Positions 1,333 through 10,885 of a stretch of 64,000 nt of DNA are shown here, piece after piece. The position numbers were made by a program, and so were the translations under genes. The notes under the pieces were generated by a model. It searched no databases, was not told the DNA's origin, and worked only from the letters and a program-made list of their open reading frames with translations. Origin of the DNA: a virus; IMG/VR virus record IMGVR_UViG_3300022188_000008, positions 1 to 64,000 of that record; one strand, written 5' to 3'. Within the stretch, counting starts at the first letter, position 1. Each line of letters starts with the position of its first letter.

Positions 1333-2787
1333 TTAAGGTCTGTTTATCTCATATTTTTTGATGGCTTCTAACATGATCGTATAAGGCGTGAATTCCGAGG
1401 CACTAAATATAGCCTTCAGAATGGAAGTGCTGAAACCAGATACTAATGCTGTATTTTCAACCCTAACTGTTTCAGGAGACCCTGCATAACCAGCAGTGTT
1501 CCAGTAGATTATCTTAGGTCTTTTATACCCAGCTTTATCCCATCTCTTCAATGCTTTGTTTACTTCTGTCTGTACTTCTTTAGGGTTGAAGCATTCCTCG
1601 TCCCAGAAACCCCCTTGTGACAAACCTTCATGAAATTGCATATCTGAAATAATCAATAAACAAGTAGGCATTTGCTCACTAGTGAGATTGAAGAATTTTG
1701 CTGTTTTGAGTATCAAGTCAAGAGCTTTATCAATCCTAGTTCCACCTACTGCACCATCAAATATCTCTCTATTTCTTACTGCTTCTGAAAATTTCATTCC
1801 ATTCCAATCCTTAAAACTACCTTCAGAACAGAATGCAATGAATTTCTTATGGAAAGGATTATCTTCAGGAATCTTGGCAGAACAATATAATGCCATTCCT
1901 ATAGATACATCTACAGCTCTAATAGAGCCAGACACTTGAACACTCATAGAGTATGAAGTATCAGAAATTACGATAATACGCTCTTTGTTACCCTCAAGAT
2001 AATTAGGAAGAGCATCAAATTGGGCATCTGCTATCTCCGTATCTCCACTTCTTACAGTTCTTACACAATCATGGGGGAAAAGCGCAGATGCTTTGATTTC
2101 TACCTTTCCTTTTCTCAAGTCCTCTTTGAATTTCCTGAAGCCTTCCTCATCGTGTTTAGCAAAAGCATTTGTATATCTTGCCATTGCTACAGAAGGCACT
2201 TTAGGATATTCAATCTCTCTCCAGAGGTTAGAACACATTTTATACTCTACAATGTGTTGCTTTCTAATTCTAGAAAGCAATCTTCTCAATCCAGCTTCGT
2301 TAGTATTCAATGCTTTTTGAAGGGGTTTATAATGTCTTTTAGCCCATTTAGCCGCAAGAATATCTTTTTTCTTTATAGCATCTACCCAGAATCTTGCAGC
2401 CTCTTCCTCCAAGTCAGTACCAAATAAAGCCTTCAAATCATCCCATCTTCCATATTCAGGGATTAAATGTAAATTGGCTTCCACCCACTTGTAGTTTGGA
2501 AAATCAAAAGGTAGGCTAGGGTCATAAGTGGCTAACCAATTAATACATTCTCTGAATCCAGATCTATTTCCAGCCCCTCCCCTACAATCTCTCAGCCAGA
2601 AGAGTAGTTTCATGGACAGTTCTTCATCTACTACCCACATTTTCTGAAAGAGAGAAAGAGCTGATTCCTCTGATCCATAAAAAGACTCTCTTTTCTTAAA
2701 AAGAGAACCTGCTTTGGAGAAGAATTCTAAATGATGATTTAAAGAGAAAGGATACTGAGTTCCACCTTCGTGGGTTTTGGAAAACAC
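1333..2787 (-). CDS. Ro60/TROVE-like protein with C-terminal vWA domain (DUF2828-type)
   Basis: LFWLRDCRGGAGNR, IPEYGRWDDL, LAAKWA and YPKVPSVAM motifs; MIDAS-like SDTSYSM; IISDMQF and IIYWN...VSGFS; GTG start with GGAGG RBS. Confidence 0.85.
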   Translation of the reverse strand: MFSKTHEGGTQYPFSLNHHLEFFSKAGSLFKKRESFYGSEESALSLFQKMWVVDEELSMKLLFWLRDCRGGAGNRSGFRECINWLATYDPSLPFDFPNYKWVEANLHLIPEYGRWDDLKALFGTDLEEEAARFWVDAIKKKDILAAKWAKRHYKPLQKALNTNEAGLRRLLSRIRKQHIVEYKMCSNLWREIEYPKVPSVAMARYTNAFAKHDEEGFRKFKEDLRKGKVEIKASALFPHDCVRTVRSGDTEIADAQFDALPNYLEGNKERIIVISDTSYSMSVQVSGSIRAVDVSIGMALYCSAKIPEDNPFHKKFIAFCSEGSFKDWNGMKFSEAVRNREIFDGAVGGTRIDKALDLILKTAKFFNLTSEQMPTCLLIISDMQFHEGLSQGGFWDEECFNPKEVQTEVNKALKRWDKAGYKRPKIIYWNTAGYAGSPETVRVENTALVSGFSTSILKAIFSASEFTPYTIMLEAIKKYEINRP

Positions 2788-2824: not shown

Positions 2825-2891
2825 AGGCTGGGTTGTAAGTCAGATCCAAAGTCTGATGCTATATAAGCGAGAAATTTGCTGTACCCAGCCT
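2825..2891 (-). ncRNA. Array unit 1: stem-UACAGCAAA RNA carrying a tRNA-Gln(UUG)-like anticodon stem-loop
   Basis: aggctgggt/acccagcct closing stem; internal ucaga-CUUUGGA-ucuga at 2840-2856. Confidence 0.7.
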
Positions 2892-2915
2892 TGGCCTTCA
2901 TTTTCATACAAAAAC

Positions 2916-2977
2916 AGGGAGGCATTTTCTGGTTAGCTTATGAGGCTAAGTTGCATATGTTTTGCTGTAGCCTCCCT
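2916..2977 (-). ncRNA. Array unit 2: stem-UACAGCAAA RNA carrying a tRNA-Met/Ile2(CAU)-like anticodon stem-loop
   Basis: agggaggc/gcctccct closing stem; internal uuagc-CUCAUAA-gcuaa at 2933-2949. Confidence 0.7.
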
Positions 2978-2987
2978 TATTGTTAAG

Positions 2988-3054
2988 AGCGGGAAGATGG
3001 AATCGAACCATCCTGTTTTTCGGGTAGAAAAACATCTGCCACCCAGTTCCCGCT
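2988..3054 (-). ncRNA. tRNA-like RNA with canonical acceptor and T arms and a reduced D arm
   Basis: gcgggaa/uucccgc acceptor stem; gaugg-UUCGAUU-ccauc T arm; uguuuuuc/gaaaaaca middle arm; no encoded CCA. Confidence 0.7.
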
Positions 3055-3059
3055 AATAC

Positions 3060-3130
3060 AGACTGGCAAATAAATACAGAAGTCGGACCTGCTAAAATCC
3101 AATTATATATGTTTTTGCTGAAGCCAGTCT
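3060..3130 (-). ncRNA. Array unit 3: stem-UUCAGCAAA RNA
   Basis: agactggc/gccagtct stem; internal hairpin uugga...uccga whose loop contains UUUAG. Confidence 0.65.
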
Positions 3131-3155: not shown

Positions 3156-3205
3156 AGGTTGGTATCAGAACCCTCGCATGGTATTTTGTTTGCTGCAACC
3201 AACCT
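3156..3205 (-). ncRNA. Array unit 4: stem-UGCAGCAAA RNA (short)
   Basis: aggttggt/accaacct stem; weak internal acc-AUGCGAG-ggu hairpin. Confidence 0.6.
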
Positions 3206-3212
3206 TGATATT

Positions 3213-3308
3213 TGAGTAGGCAAGCGGCTCTGCCAGGAGGTTTAGGATTGGTTAAATAAATATAATAAATAAATTTTCTACCAAGGCAGTTAAGAACTTA
3301 CCTACTCA
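3213..3308 (-). ncRNA. Leader structured RNA (Y-RNA-like long bulged stem)
   Basis: 12-bp ugaguagguaag/cuugccuacuca stem (the U-G pair forms only on the minus strand); internal cugcc/ggcag and uuggu/accaa stems; AU-rich loop. Confidence 0.55.
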
Positions 3309-3322
3309 TTAACTTGAACTAT

Positions 3323-3351
3323 AATATACTATGAATTTAAACTCATGTCAA
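3323..3351 (-). promoter_or_regulatory. sigma70-type promoter driving the RNA array and Ro-like gene
   Basis: TTGACA-17 nt-TATATT, with TAG preceding the -10 as in the other phage promoters. Confidence 0.75.
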
Positions 3352-8608: not shown

Positions 8609-10885
8609 TTAAAGATTGAATTTTTTACATAATGCTATTAATTGTTTCTCATCTCCAGCTTTTATTTTGAACTTCTCACCTGTTTTCTTATCTTCATAAA
8701 CATATTCGAAGCTATTATCTACTATTTTATTGAATTTTTGTTTATTGGTAGGAATTAATATCCCTTCAAATGCTAAATATCTATCATAACCACCCCATTC
8801 TGGAACTCCTGTAGTAAAGAAAAAGGGGATAATTGTACGTGAGAAACTAGGACCTCGGCGTGTTTTATCTACAATAACTTCTAAATATACTCCTACTTGT
8901 TTATTACCTATTTTTATAGGTTTCTTGGCATCTAATGCTATTCCGCATGTTCTGAGATAATCAGGTGCAGTTCCACATGCTTTTGTTTTAGGATTGGTAA
9001 ACATTGCATTGGGATTAAATGTTACGTGGTTAGAAAATAATATCATTGTTTTTGAATCTATAACTAATAATTCCCTGAAAGCAGCATGGATGGCTTTTGC
9101 TTTTTTACCCATATCTTCGCCTTTTAAACCTTTTGGCATGAAAGCAGCCAGGGAATCAATAAGAACAACAATATGATAGTGCATATCAGGGTCTTTATCT
9201 CTTATTTTAGTTACTGTCTCCAGGATAAAATCCTTTGCTGCTTCGGGAGTAGGGATAGAAGCTGGTTTAGCTAATATGACTTTGTCAGTCTCTATGCCTA
9301 AGAATTCGGCTCTCTTTGTAGTATATGCTTTTTCCCTATCAAGAATAATCCCTATTGTTGGAGGATATTGTTTTTGGGCATTTGCAAGTGCTTTCTGCAA
9401 GAAAAAGGAATTATGAGATACAAAGCCATTGGCAAGATACTTGTGCTGTATTGGCATTTCTATATCAAGAACATCACTTTTATATTTCTGAATCTTATAC
9501 ACTTTATCGTGTGTTGTTTTAACATAACTTAAATCCTTATCCATATAAGGTAAGGCATATTGTACCATTAGTGCAAATTTAGAGGGATAATTTTTCTCAA
9601 CGAAATTTATATCTGTTAGATTTAGTAATTTTGCCATGTTTATTTTATCGAATTTAAGGCTTAATCTAGTCATCTGAAAAGGGGTAATGACATTTATATA
9701 TCTAAAATGTTTTTCTTCATCAGATGAAGTATAAAAACCCCTGCTTTGTATTCCTAAAGATTCTAAGTATAGTTTTATAAAATAAAGTATATAGAATGAA
9801 AAAGAAAACACAGAATATTTCTTCTTCTCCATTCTTCCATTTAAAGCCATAAATTCTATTATGAATCTTAAAATTTTCTTCTTAGGTGCTCTTAATATAG
9901 AAAAAGGTACAAAACGTGCCCCTGTTGGAAAATTCAATGTTAACCCTATATTCATAAGATAAGGAATTAATTGTTGTGTTAGATCTTCTATATCATATCT
10001 TTCCTCTTCAATATTTAGTATCCTAGCTATAAGAGTCTTACACACTCTACTTATATCAGCTTTATTCATTTGATTCAGGGTAAACTGCTGAGTAGGTAAT
10101 TGCTTTAAATACCCATCTTTATACTCATAAAAAGTCAAAATAAGAGCCATAAGGCTTATAAGATCGTTAGTTAACCTGGTAGGAAGAGCAGCAAGAACTG
10201 AATAATCCACAATAGCTTCATCGTCAACTATCTCATATTTTGGTAACTTTAGTGTTCCTTTACGTTCTGTCACATTAGGAAGAGAAATCTTAACATCGTC
10301 ATCTTTTGTTATATCTTTCAGTTCTTTATCTATAACTTTTCCATTTTTATCTATTACTTCTATTTTATGCTCAGGAGTGCCTGCTATTGTAAATCCATTA
10401 TAAGTTATGATTCTTATAACCTTTTCATTTTTCGCAAAGTATATCTTATCTACTTTCTCCGATTCCTGCTTTCCTTCTATAGGTATTTTCTTATCCAATT
10501 CCCACCAATAATTAGGAGGAAGAAAGTCTTTCATTTTTGTGAAATATCTGCCTGTAAGGAGATTATAGCCAGAAGGAGGGAAAATAATATCATCAATCAT
10601 TATGAAGCCATAATCAGGACTGAAGAGGTAAGTATCCGGTGTTACGCATTTCCCTGTTTGTGATAATCCAAAAAATTCATGAAGATGCCCAAAAGGCAAC
10701 CCCCCATAGAGCATCTTATCAATTGCCTTATTGCCTAATGTTAGTAAATCCCCTTCTGTTGATTCAGAAAATAATTCAATATCAGCTCCAAAATCTTTTC
10801 TAAGACTGGTAATTAATGTTTTTAGATTTATATCTTTCTTCTTTTTATCTTCTCCCATCATCTTACTCCAGATTAGGAATACCAA
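8609..10885 (-). CDS. RecA/UvsX-like recombinase interrupted by an intein
   Basis: GGLPFG, P-loop GLSQTGK[intein]S, DREKA, LIDSLAA; true start probably MMGED. Confidence 0.88.
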   Translation of the reverse strand: MVFLIWSKMMGEDKKKKDINLKTLITSLRKDFGADIELFSESTEGDLLTLGNKAIDKMLYGGLPFGHLHEFFGLSQTGKCVTPDTYLFSPDYGFIMIDDIIFPPSGYNLLTGRYFTKMKDFLPPNYWWELDKKIPIEGKQESEKVDKIYFAKNEKVIRIITYNGFTIAGTPEHKIEVIDKNGKVIDKELKDITKDDDVKISLPNVTERKGTLKLPKYEIVDDEAIVDYSVLAALPTRLTNDLISLMALILTFYEYKDGYLKQLPTQQFTLNQMNKADISRVCKTLIARILNIEEERYDIEDLTQQLIPYLMNIGLTLNFPTGARFVPFSILRAPKKKILRFIIEFMALNGRMEKKKYSVFSFSFYILYFIKLYLESLGIQSRGFYTSSDEEKHFRYINVITPFQMTRLSLKFDKINMAKLLNLTDINFVEKNYPSKFALMVQYALPYMDKDLSYVKTTHDKVYKIQKYKSDVLDIEMPIQHKYLANGFVSHNSFFLQKALANAQKQYPPTIGIILDREKAYTTKRAEFLGIETDKVILAKPASIPTPEAAKDFILETVTKIRDKDPDMHYHIVVLIDSLAAFMPKGLKGEDMGKKAKAIHAAFRELLVIDSKTMILFSNHVTFNPNAMFTNPKTKACGTAPDYLRTCGIALDAKKPIKIGNKQVGVYLEVIVDKTRRGPSFSRTIIPFFFTTGVPEWGGYDRYLAFEGILIPTNKQKFNKIVDNSFEYVYEDKKTGEKFKIKAGDEKQLIALCKKFNL
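9410..10648 (-). mobile_element. Intein (413 aa) in the RecA P-loop with a degenerate LAGLIDADG-like endonuclease
   Basis: Starts CVTPDT right after GK; block B GTPEHKI; ends YLANGFVSHN followed by Ser. Confidence 0.9.

What the first reader, a model, noticed from the sequence alone, without database searches (positions are those of the whole stretch)
2988..3054. Shrunken tRNA-like cloverleaf inside the array
It has a 7-bp acceptor stem and a perfect T arm (GAUGG-UUCGAUU-CCAUC). The D region is only 11 nt (cuggguggcag, keeping GG), the middle arm is 8 bp with a 5-nt loop, the variable region is one base, and no CCA is encoded. It is unlikely to decode. It resembles the YrlA tRNA-like module, or an RNase P/RNase Z processing signal that would cut the array into units.
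Basis: partly seen in the sequence, partly recalled or inferred. Interest (0 to 1): 0.7.

Follow-up and report, generated by a model that had tools for sequence, protein, structure and literature searches.

The report
Miniature glycine tRNA in phage operon
A strongly conserved 67-base shrunken glycine tRNA sits among four small "handle" RNAs in front of a phage gene for a Ro60-like RNA-binding protein; it keeps every mark by which bacteria recognise glycine tRNA, so it is a working tRNA stand-in and not a decayed gene, but whether it still reads codons is untested.

Summary
Window 3054-2988 (minus strand) folds into a shrunken cloverleaf. It has a 7-bp acceptor (8 pairs are possible), a 3-bp/5-nt mini D hairpin with no linker, a 7-bp anticodon stem with a 7-nt loop (anticodon ACC), a 1-nt variable region, a canonical T arm and no CCA.

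ARAGORN calls it tRNA-Gly(ACC). The Rfam tRNA model does not reach its threshold. It is the only tRNA-like call in this 95-kb phage record.

It is not a YrlA module. It has no handle, its acceptor end is open, and no YrlA match appeared. It cannot cut the whole array into units, because it sits at only one junction and related arrays have none.

It is a miniaturised descendant of phage-type tRNA-Gly(ACC). It keeps G1-C72, C2-G71, G3-C70, U73, C35 and C36. It diverges 3% where neighbouring third codon positions diverge 26%. A diverged paralogue elsewhere in the genome shares the same marks.

My best reading (0.4) is a processed tRNA-Gly stand-in acting with the Ro60-like/handle-RNA programme. 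A true decoder is the main rival (0.3).

This scan has noted the protein-plus-handle-RNA array many times on other DNA. A look-up by sequence returned only this window for the mini-tRNA. Expression could not be tested.

The parts
2988..3054 (-). Mini-tRNA (the finding). A(-1) is 3054, G1 is 3053 and the U73 discriminator is 2988. It spans 66 nt from G1 to U73.
   Evidence: ARAGORN tRNA-Gly(acc) at 2987-3053; own covariance model R1, 100.6 bits; conserved in L009, L010 and L011
3047..3053 (-). Acceptor 5' strand. It pairs with 2989-2995. The stem and discriminator are the same as in E. coli glyV.
3036..3046 (-). Mini D hairpin: 3 bp and a 5-nt loop ending in UGG. It directly abuts the acceptor, with no positions 8-9.
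   Evidence: The loop varies (GGUGG, GAUGG, AUUGG) while the stem and GG are kept.
3014..3034 (-). Anticodon arm: 7-bp stem and 7-nt loop at 3027-3021, with U33, anticodon ACC at 3025-3023 and C37.
   Evidence: L010 and L011 change one G-C to G-U; L009 has A37.
2996..3012 (-). T arm: 5 bp and a canonical 7-nt loop. A single G (3013) serves as the variable region.
3323..3351 (-). Sigma-70-like promoter (11 of 12 matches) that would drive the whole array and the gene
3214..3307 (-). Long leader hairpin without a handle motif. It is absent from L009.
3156..3205 (-). Handle RNA unit A
3060..3130 (-). Handle RNA unit B. Its 3' CUGU lies a few bases before the mini-tRNA. Its interior is a T-arm look-alike in L009, L010 and L011.
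2916..2977 (-). Handle RNA unit C. It starts about 10 nt after the mini-tRNA. Its interior is an anticodon-arm look-alike (CAU).
2825..2891 (-). Handle RNA unit D. Its interior is an anticodon-arm look-alike (UUG).
1333..2787 (-). Ro60-like protein gene (DUF2828 + DUF7788, phrog_850), preceded by AGGAGG
   Evidence: AlphaFold model pLDDT 82.8; the top 13 Foldseek matches are all Ro60 structures

Best explanation
The element is a miniaturised descendant of the phage-type glycine tRNA with anticodon ACC. It is kept by selection as a tRNA-Gly stand-in rather than as an efficient decoder.

It is transcribed from the promoter at 3351-3323 as part of one precursor. The order is leader hairpin, handle RNAs A and B, mini-tRNA, handle RNAs C and D, then the mRNA of the Ro60-like protein.

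Its acceptor/T-arm helix, canonical T loop and GG-bearing D loop should let host RNase P cut at G1. Host 3' enzymes plus the CCA-adding enzyme should finish the 3' end. That cut also trims the 3' side of unit B and opens the precursor ahead of unit C.

The released 66-nt RNA (69 nt with CCA) folds into a compact L. The 7-bp anticodon stem makes up for the 3-bp D stem. It presents the full bacterial glycine identity set, so it should be bound, and probably charged, by glycyl-tRNA synthetase or by other host factors that single out tRNA-Gly.

I propose that it acts with the neighbouring handle RNAs, which display loose tRNA parts, and with the Ro60-like protein. Its role would be as a decoy, or as a protected substitute, in the contest over host tRNAs.

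Shown: the fold, the conservation, the identity set, the paralogue and the operon context. Inferred: the processing, the charging and the decoy role.
For: 1. Glycine identity. G1-C72, C2-G71, G3-C70, U73, C35 and C36 are all present. The acceptor stem plus discriminator are identical to E. coli glyV. These are the bacterial determinants, and U73 with G71 is specific to tRNA-Gly (PMC9976931).

2. The ACC anticodon is not an oddity in phages. The related contig L057 has a canonical tRNA-Gly(ACC) scoring 69.9 bits. One D-arm/loop pattern found 64 viral contigs, with 43 ARAGORN tRNA-Gly(acc) calls and 19 distinct sequences.

3. Purifying selection. There are 2 differences in 67 bases against L010 and L011. 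Third codon positions of the adjacent gene differ by 26-27% and the spacers by 19-24%. The binomial P is 5e-7.

4. The cloverleaf is the conserved fold. It is the minimum-energy fold in L009 and L010. The substitutions fall in the D loop, at position 37, or change G-C to G-U. They break the alternative fold that RNAfold prefers for the window copy.

5. A paralogue exists in the same genome (L061 4759-4823; R1 31.5 bits, E 2e-7; also kept in G001). It has the same architecture. It shares only A(-1), the first five acceptor pairs, U73, ACC and part of the T stem. Its other helices differ by compensatory changes.

6. That paralogue has an 8-nt loop without U33 and a non-canonical T loop. This points to recognition as tRNA-Gly, not to decoding.

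7. C37 is the ancestral state in this clade.

8. The neighbouring units display anticodon-arm and T-arm look-alikes. The adjacent protein models as Ro60.

9. Neither this record nor the complete relative G001 has any canonical tRNA.
Against:
- Only three distinct sequences of the element are known, with a single one-sided stem change among them. Structural support therefore rests mostly on the paralogue.
- The phage record has no RtcB, Rnl2-type RNA ligase or CCA-adding enzyme gene that would tie it to RNA repair.
- A decoy role has no direct evidence.
- U33, the 7-nt loop, the canonical T loop and A37 in L009 are just what a decoder would keep.
- The possible A(-1)-U73 pair could shift the RNase P cut.
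Confidence: 0.4

Rival explanations
1. It is a true, if compact, decoding tRNA-Gly. It is processed, CCA-tailed, charged by GlyRS, carried by EF-Tu, and reads GGU, with A34 perhaps reading other GGN codons more weakly. It would be the phage's only tRNA.
For: - The identity set is complete, U33 is present and the loop is 7 nt.
- The T loop is canonical and the D loop keeps GG.
- ACC is the usual anticodon of many canonical phage tRNA-Gly genes.
- The anticodon arm is almost invariant.
- GGT makes up 31% of glycine codons.
- 29 of the 54 tRNA calls in related loci, the three copies of this element among them, lack an encoded CCA, so its absence says nothing.
- Compact-core tRNAs exist: D-armless mitochondrial tRNA-Ser is active, and tRNA-Pyl is similar (PMC4394434). 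That tRNA-Pyl works on bacterial ribosomes is from my own knowledge.
- Expanded wobble rules suggest unmodified A34 pairs best with U and modestly with C (PMC11066159 abstract).
Against: - A pyrimidine at position 37 in three of four copies.
- No positions 8-9, a 1-nt variable region and a 3-bp D stem.
- It fails the Rfam tRNA model.
- I know of no truncated-core decoder outside organelles.
- A phage cannot co-evolve the host ribosome, so shrinkage under selection for decoding is hard to explain.
- The paralogue lacks U33 and a canonical T loop yet keeps the same identity marks.
Confidence: 0.3
2. It is only a processing signal, like a t-element. The tRNA shape recruits RNase P and RNase Z to cut the precursor, and the released RNA has no further role.
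For: - In related phages canonical tRNAs abut handle units at 2-25 nt in 11 cases.
- Unit B ends a few bases before G1 and unit C starts about 10 nt after U73.
- The paralogue lies between two protein genes, with its CCA running into the next ribosome-binding site.
- t-elements do this in plant mitochondria (PMC1920247).
Against: - RNase P and RNase Z need only the acceptor/T-arm part. Here the anticodon arm, ACC and the whole glycine identity set are conserved, and they are shared with a paralogue whose other helices have all changed.
- Three other junctions in this array have no such signal.
- Related arrays of 4-6 units have no tRNA between units.
Confidence: 0.15
3. It is the tRNA-like module of a Y RNA (YrlA design), or a direct ligand of the Ro60-like protein, supplied in trans.
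For: - It lies in the array ahead of a gene with a Ro60-like fold.
- Other members of this array family do carry YrlA-style permuted tRNA modules inside the handle RNA, for example L005 4618-4755.
- YrlA modules mimic the T arm, D arm and acceptor (PMC4201824).
Against: - The element has no handle motif (U-W-CAGCAA, or the GNCGAA of YrlA).
- It has open 5' and 3' ends and its own anticodon arm.
- There was no YrlA or Y_RNA match at E up to 10.
- 87 distinct handle units share the motif that presumably binds the protein; this RNA lacks it.
Confidence: 0.07
4. It is a decaying tRNA pseudogene with no function.
For: The core is truncated, it fails the Rfam tRNA model, and it is confined to a narrow clade.
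Against: It is the slowest-evolving element in the array: 3% divergence against about 26% at third codon positions. All helices are intact, and the paralogue shows compensatory changes.
Confidence: 0.03

Closest known systems
Canonical bacterial and phage tRNA-Gly (E. coli glyV; phage tRNA-Gly(ACC) such as L057 2419-2491)
   Same: The acceptor stem and U73 are identical to glyV. C35 and C36 are present. The ACC anticodon matches many phage tRNA-Gly genes. The T arm is canonical and the D loop keeps GG.
   Different: No positions 8-9. The D arm is 3 bp with a 5-nt loop instead of 4 bp with 8-9 nt. The anticodon stem is 7 bp instead of 5. The variable region is 1 nt instead of 4-5. Position 37 is C. 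It scores below the Rfam tRNA threshold.
Truncated-core tRNAs: mammalian mitochondrial D-armless tRNA-Ser and archaeal tRNA-Pyl (PMC4394434)
   Same: The connector between the acceptor and the anticodon stem is short (12 nt, within the 5-12 nt of the D-armless class). The D loop is tiny, the variable region is short and the anticodon stem is lengthened (the tRNA-Pyl details are from my own knowledge).
   Different: Those are organellar or archaeal decoders with a dedicated or adapted partner machinery. This one is in a bacteriophage. It keeps a canonical T loop and GG, has glycine identity, and its function is untested.
YrlA/YrlB Y RNAs of bacteria and phages bound by Ro60 (Rfam RF02553; PMC4201824; phage phiLo Yrl1 and Yrl2, PMC12135203)
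   Same: It is encoded just upstream of a gene with a Ro60-type fold, together with several small stem-closed RNAs. It mimics tRNA. M. smegmatis YrlA is cut by RNase P and receives CCA.
   Different: In YrlA the tRNA-like module lies inside the Y RNA, with a closed acceptor and no anticodon arm, and the handle carries GNCGAA. Here the element stands alone and has no handle. The protein is DUF2828, which gave no significant sequence match to any solved structure, Ro60 included.
Handle RNAs next to DUF2828 genes, and Dictyostelium Class I RNAs (Rfam RF01414; PMC7919456)
   Same: The four neighbours (units A-D) have the stem + U-W-CAGCAA ... stem + CUG design. Units of Aeromonas phage 4_4572 give sub-threshold RF01414 matches.
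   Different: The mini-tRNA itself lacks the motif and the design. It is a neighbour of this family, not a member.
t-elements of plant mitochondrial mRNAs (PMC1920247)
   Same: A tRNA-shaped element inside a polycistronic transcript, at the ends of other RNAs. It would be cut by RNase P and RNase Z.
   Different: Here a full amino-acid identity set and the anticodon are conserved, well beyond the acceptor/T-arm part that I take RNase P and RNase Z to need (my own knowledge).

Membership tests
Canonical tRNA (Rfam RF00005) | 7-bp acceptor stem with an unpaired discriminator | tested here: met
   G3053-A3047 pairs with U2995-C2989 and U2988 is the discriminator. An eighth pair, A3054-U2988, is possible.
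Canonical tRNA (Rfam RF00005) | T arm of 5 bp with a 7-nt UUCRANY-type loop | tested here: met
   3012-2996, loop UUCGAUU
Canonical tRNA (Rfam RF00005) | Positions 8-9, then a D arm of 3-4 bp with a 7-11-nt loop | tested here: not met
   There is no linker. The stem is 3 bp and the loop 5 nt, although GG is kept.
Canonical tRNA (Rfam RF00005) | Anticodon arm of 5 bp, a 7-nt loop with U33 and a purine at 37; variable region of 4 nt or more | tested here: not met
   The stem is 7 bp. The loop is 7 nt with U33, but C37 in three of four copies (A37 in L009). The variable region is 1 nt.
Canonical tRNA (Rfam RF00005) | Score at or above the family's gathering threshold (29 bits) | tested here: not met
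   No match at gathering threshold. The best clan match is tRNA-Sec at 23.5 bits. RF00005 finds nothing in the whole record. ARAGORN does call it.
Bacterial tRNA-Gly (identity set for GlyRS) | U73, G1-C72, C2-G71, C35, C36 (PMC9976931) | tested here: met
   All are present and invariant in the window, L009, L010 and L011. They are shared by the paralogue.
Bacterial tRNA-Gly (identity set for GlyRS) | Actual charging with glycine | not testable with these tools
   Needs an aminoacylation assay
YrlA (Rfam RF02553) | 5' and 3' ends form a stem whose 5' strand carries GNCGAA(N0-1)G; the tRNA-like module lies inside, with a closed acceptor | tested here: not met
   No such motif or topology in 3054-2988. 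No YrlA or Y_RNA match at E up to 10.
YrlA (Rfam RF02553) | Encoded next to a Ro60 orthologue | tested here: inconclusive
   The neighbour is DUF2828. Its model matches Ro60 structures (E about 1e-6, TM 0.5-0.58), but it has no sequence-level match to Ro60.
DUF2828-associated handle RNA (Class I-like) | 7-9-bp closing stem, U-W-CAGCAA after the 5' arm, CUG at the 3' arm | tested here: not met
   Met by units A-D and by 87 distinct units in relatives. The mini-tRNA has none of these features.
t-element / tRNA punctuation | RNA ends of neighbouring transcripts map to the edges of the tRNA-like structure | not testable with these tools
Only adjacency is shown.

The most novel reading that the evidence does not exclude
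A bacteriophage encodes a miniaturised tRNA with a mitochondrial-style truncated core. It is charged with glycine and works on ordinary bacterial ribosomes, as the phage's sole tRNA. As far as I know this would be the first truncated-core decoder found outside organelles, and a natural minimal tRNA scaffold.
Probability: 0.3. Interest if true: 0.85.

Novelty: new variant of a known kind. Interest (0 to 1): 0.55.

Why it matters
To my knowledge, tRNAs with a truncated core are known almost only from animal mitochondria, where the translation machinery co-evolved with them. A selected, shrunken tRNA-Gly in a phage shows one of two things. Either bacterial tRNA enzymes tolerate far smaller cores than assumed, which is useful for minimal or orthogonal tRNA design. 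Or phages build whole-tRNA decoys alongside the tRNA-part decoys carried by the handle RNAs of the Ro60-like system.

It also gives a simple handle on that still undescribed RNA-protein system. One operon holds the protein, four handle RNAs and a complete mini-tRNA, and all of them can be expressed and assayed together.

Tried and rejected
1. Alternative minimum-energy fold of the window copy, with the D region pairing with the anticodon loop (-27.0 against -21.5 kcal/mol). Rejected: the substitutions in L009 and L010 break it, and the cloverleaf is the minimum-energy fold there.

2. A 17-nt complementarity between the mini-tRNA and the handle of unit C (I4). Rejected: unit C differs in L009 and L010 while the mini-tRNA does not, so the pairing is not conserved.

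3. tRNA-Sec. The 23.5-bit match only reflects the long acceptor helix, and there is no long variable arm.

4. YrlA or Y_RNA: no match.

5. More homologues.
   - My first DNA pattern had one base too many and found nothing.
   - The corrected patterns found only the known relative and one chance match in a coding region, L008.
   - Model R1 found no other mini-tRNA in 55 sources.

6. RNA-repair or CCA-adding genes in the phage record: none found.

7. Pfam on the ORF next to the paralogue: no match.

8. blastn of the element against E. coli genomes and of the array against phage records: no match.

10. Integration-site remnant: not favoured, because the element has both acceptor strands. I did not search for an integrase.

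Full report
WHAT IS THERE

On the minus strand, window 3054-2988 reads as a compact cloverleaf. In the tRNA register that ARAGORN uses (tRNA-Gly, anticodon ACC, 2987-3053), the parts are:
- Acceptor: G3053-A3047 pairs with U2995-C2989, and U2988 is the discriminator.
- Mini D hairpin: it follows the acceptor with no linker. It has 3 bp and a 5-nt loop ending in UGG (3046-3036).
- One A (3035).
- Anticodon arm: a 7-bp stem and a 7-nt loop with U33, ACC and C37 (3034-3014).
- One G (3013).
- T arm: a textbook 5-bp stem and 7-nt loop (3012-2996).
- No CCA follows.

Two refinements apply. Eight contiguous acceptor pairs are possible because A3054 can pair with U2988. The '8 bp/5-nt loop' version of the middle arm is only what energy minimisation does to any anticodon loop; it does the same to a canonical tRNA.

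IS IT AN ORDINARY tRNA?

No.
- Rfam finds nothing at gathering thresholds in the whole window.
- In the permissive mode the best match in the tRNA clan is tRNA-Sec, at 23.5 bits against a cut-off of 47.
- The tRNA model RF00005 finds nothing in the 95,305-base virus record that holds the window.
- ARAGORN finds only this one element.
- The complete genome of the closest relative (G001, 96,320 bases with terminal repeats) also has no canonical tRNA.

CONTEXT

The element lies in the 540-base gap between two minus-strand genes.

The downstream gene (1333-2787) is DUF2828 + DUF7788, phrog_850 'RNA-binding protein'.
- A profile of it gives no significant sequence match to any solved structure.
- An AlphaFold model built on 31 relatives (pLDDT 82.8) has Ro60 structures as its 13 best Foldseek matches over its whole length. 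These include the Ro60 of Thermus phage phiLo, Xenopus and human Ro60, and Deinococcus Rsr (E about 1e-6, TM 0.5-0.58).

The gap also holds:
- A promoter with 11 of 12 consensus matches (3351-3323).
- A long leader hairpin (3307-3214).
- Four 'handle' RNAs (units A-D). Each has a 7-9-bp closing stem of its own sequence, U-W-CAGCAA after the 5' arm, a variable interior, and CUG at the 3' arm.

The handle design recurs widely:
- Next to DUF2828 genes in three IMG/VR relatives.
- In Aeromonas phage 4_4572 and Cronobacter phage S13.
- In 50 metagenome loci. There a simple detector finds 110 units on the gene's strand, against 9 on the other strand and 5 in shuffled sequence.
- Among 87 distinct units, every stem position shows four to six pair types, while U(-2) and CAGCA(A) are near-invariant.

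Units of the Aeromonas phage give sub-threshold matches to Dictyostelium Class I RNA (RF01414). That family has the same design and is thought to be unique to dictyostelids (PMC7919456).

This scan has noted the protein-plus-handle-RNA pairing many times on other DNA. I re-tested its main points here. The mini-tRNA itself was not found elsewhere by sequence look-up.

RELATIVES OF THE ELEMENT

It occurs in only a narrow clade:
- The IMG/VR relative (L001 = L007 = L010).
- Two metagenome contigs, L009 and L011, whose DUF2828 proteins are 96% and 90% identical.
- A covariance model of the element (R1) finds no further copy in 55 sources.

Among the four copies only four columns vary. Two are in the D loop, one is position 37 (C, or A in L009), and one is a G-C to G-U change in the anticodon stem.

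Against L010 and L011 the element differs at 2 of 67 positions. Third codon positions of the adjacent gene differ by 26-27% and the spacers by 19-24%. The chance of so few changes at the neutral rate is about 5e-7. It is the slowest-evolving element of the array.

For the window copy, RNAfold prefers an alternative fold in which the D region pairs with the anticodon loop. The substitutions in L009 and L010 break that fold, and there the shrunken cloverleaf is the minimum-energy fold.

WHAT IT DERIVES FROM

- The acceptor stem and discriminator are identical to E. coli glyV.
- With C35 and C36, the element carries the whole bacterial glycine identity set. The combination U73 + G71 is specific to tRNA-Gly (PMC9976931).
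- The ACC anticodon looked suspect, because A34 tRNA genes are very rare in cells (PMC11066159). In phages it is common. The related contig L057 has a canonical tRNA-Gly(ACC) scoring 69.9 bits.
- One D-arm/anticodon-loop pattern finds 64 viral contigs. They hold 43 ARAGORN tRNA-Gly(acc) calls and 19 distinct sequences, often beside tRNA-Gly(UCC). The GCC version is more frequent (at least 120 contigs).

The element is therefore a shrunken descendant of a normal phage tRNA type.

A PARALOGUE

Following a first-stage note on the same genome, model R1 finds a second element outside the window. It lies at genome 84759-84823 (L061 4759-4823, 31.5 bits, E 2e-7). It is kept in G001 with one loop change.

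It has the same architecture: a mini D hairpin, a 6-bp middle stem, a 1-nt variable region and a 5-bp T stem. It is followed by an encoded CCA.

It shares with the window element only A(-1), the first five acceptor pairs, U73, ACC in the loop, and part of the T stem. The last acceptor pairs, the middle stem and two T-stem pairs differ by changes on both sides.

So what selection has held constant across the two copies is the glycine identity set. What it has allowed to drift is everything else, as long as pairing is kept.

The paralogue has an 8-nt loop without U33 and a non-canonical T loop. That makes decoding unlikely for it.

HOW IT MOST LIKELY WORKS

The element is co-transcribed with the handle RNAs and the Ro60-like mRNA.

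In related phages canonical tRNAs directly abut handle units, at 2-25 nt in 11 cases. tRNA processing and handle-RNA maturation are therefore physically coupled in this family. RNase P and 3' processing at the mini-tRNA would shape the 3' side of unit B and open the precursor before unit C.

This cannot be the whole story, for three reasons:
- The other three junctions here have no such element.
- Related arrays of 4-6 units contain no tRNA at all.
- A cleavage signal needs neither an anticodon arm nor a glycine identity set.

The 7-bp anticodon stem added to the 3-bp D stem gives roughly the same stacked length as 5 + 4 in a normal tRNA, and the GG/T-loop elbow is kept. The same kind of compensation is seen in truncated mitochondrial tRNAs and in tRNA-Pyl (PMC4394434). 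A compact L that spans acceptor end to anticodon is thus plausible. That span is what GlyRS reads.

I weigh two readings:
- A tRNA-Gly stand-in that is processed and bound or charged but is not an efficient decoder (0.4). Favouring it: C37, the missing core, the paralogue's features, and the theme of tRNA-part mimics in the neighbouring units.
- A genuine compact decoder (0.3). Favouring it: U33, the 7-nt loop, the canonical T loop, A37 in L009, and the fact that it is the phage's only tRNA.

A pure processing signal (0.15), a YrlA-type ligand (0.07) and a dead pseudogene (0.03) fit less well.

The lack of an encoded CCA is uninformative, because more than half of the tRNA calls in related loci lack it. 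The phage record has no RtcB, Rnl2-type ligase or CCA-adding enzyme gene.

LIMITS

- There are no RNA data.
- Only three distinct sequences and one paralogue are known.
- The host is unknown. DUF2828 relatives at 61-65% identity occur in a Fervidobacterium chromosome and an Atribacteria bin.
- The decoy idea is inference from context.

Noticed in passing
L061 4759-4823 (genome 84759-84823, + strand, outside the window); L063 1504-1568 (-) in the relative G001: A second shrunken tRNA-Gly-like element. It has the same first five acceptor pairs and the same U73, ACC in an 8-nt loop, a non-canonical T loop, and an encoded CCA that runs into the next gene's ribosome-binding site. Its 5' part is duplicated upstream of a 135-aa ORF (L061 4340-4747, no Pfam match), so the ORF looks like a cassette inserted at the tRNA-like gene.
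   Followed up: partly
L075-L138 (IMG/VR contigs); L057 2419-2491: Canonical tRNA-Gly genes with anticodon ACC (A34) are common in phage tRNA clusters. I counted 43 ARAGORN calls and 19 distinct sequences in 64 contigs, often beside tRNA-Gly(UCC). Yet A34 tRNA genes are reported to be very rare in cellular genomes.
   Followed up: partly
window 2825-2891, 2916-2977, 3060-3130, 3156-3205 (-); L006 2083-2460: The handle RNAs next to DUF2828 genes share the stem + U-W-CAGCAA ... stem + CUG(U) design of Dictyostelium Class I RNAs. Sub-threshold RF01414 matches reach 29.6 bits in Aeromonas phage 4_4572. The 2021 study reports Class I RNAs as unique to dictyostelids.
   Followed up: partly
window 2840-2949 (-); L009 103-174; L010 2166-2227: The unit interiors look like loose tRNA parts. 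Unit C holds a 5-bp/7-nt hairpin with loop CUCAUAA, and unit D one with CUUUGGA. Unit B holds a T-arm look-alike. It is clean in L009, L010 and L011 and degenerate in the window.
   Followed up: partly
L005 4357-4477, 4487-4599, 4618-4755 (Cronobacter phage S13): Two annotated 'tRNAs' of 121 and 113 nt carry an insert of about 50 nt in the anticodon arm. The insert has a handle-like UUCAGCA motif. A third unit is a handle RNA enclosing a permuted tRNA module (T arm, closed acceptor, D arm), which is the YrlA layout.
   Followed up: no
window 3214-3307 (-): A long leader hairpin lies between the promoter and unit A. It is present in L010 and L011 but absent from L009, where the promoter is followed almost directly by unit A.
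   Followed up: no
L061 8320-8455 (genome 88320-88455, +): A match to EGFOA RNA (RF02955) at 44.7 bits, above its gathering score of 37.7. This is probably the GC-rich structured RNA that a first-stage note flagged in the other window of this genome.
   Followed up: no
window 8609-10885 (-): A UvsX/RecA-like recombinase gene interrupted by an intein (Pfam RecA + Intein_splicing).
   Followed up: no
L068 (Fervidobacterium thailandense chromosome 594948-601330); L067 (Atribacteria MAG): DUF2828 genes 61-63% identical to the window's, with handle units beside them. In L067 canonical tRNAs are beside them too. These may be prophages and could hint at the host range of this phage group.
   Followed up: no
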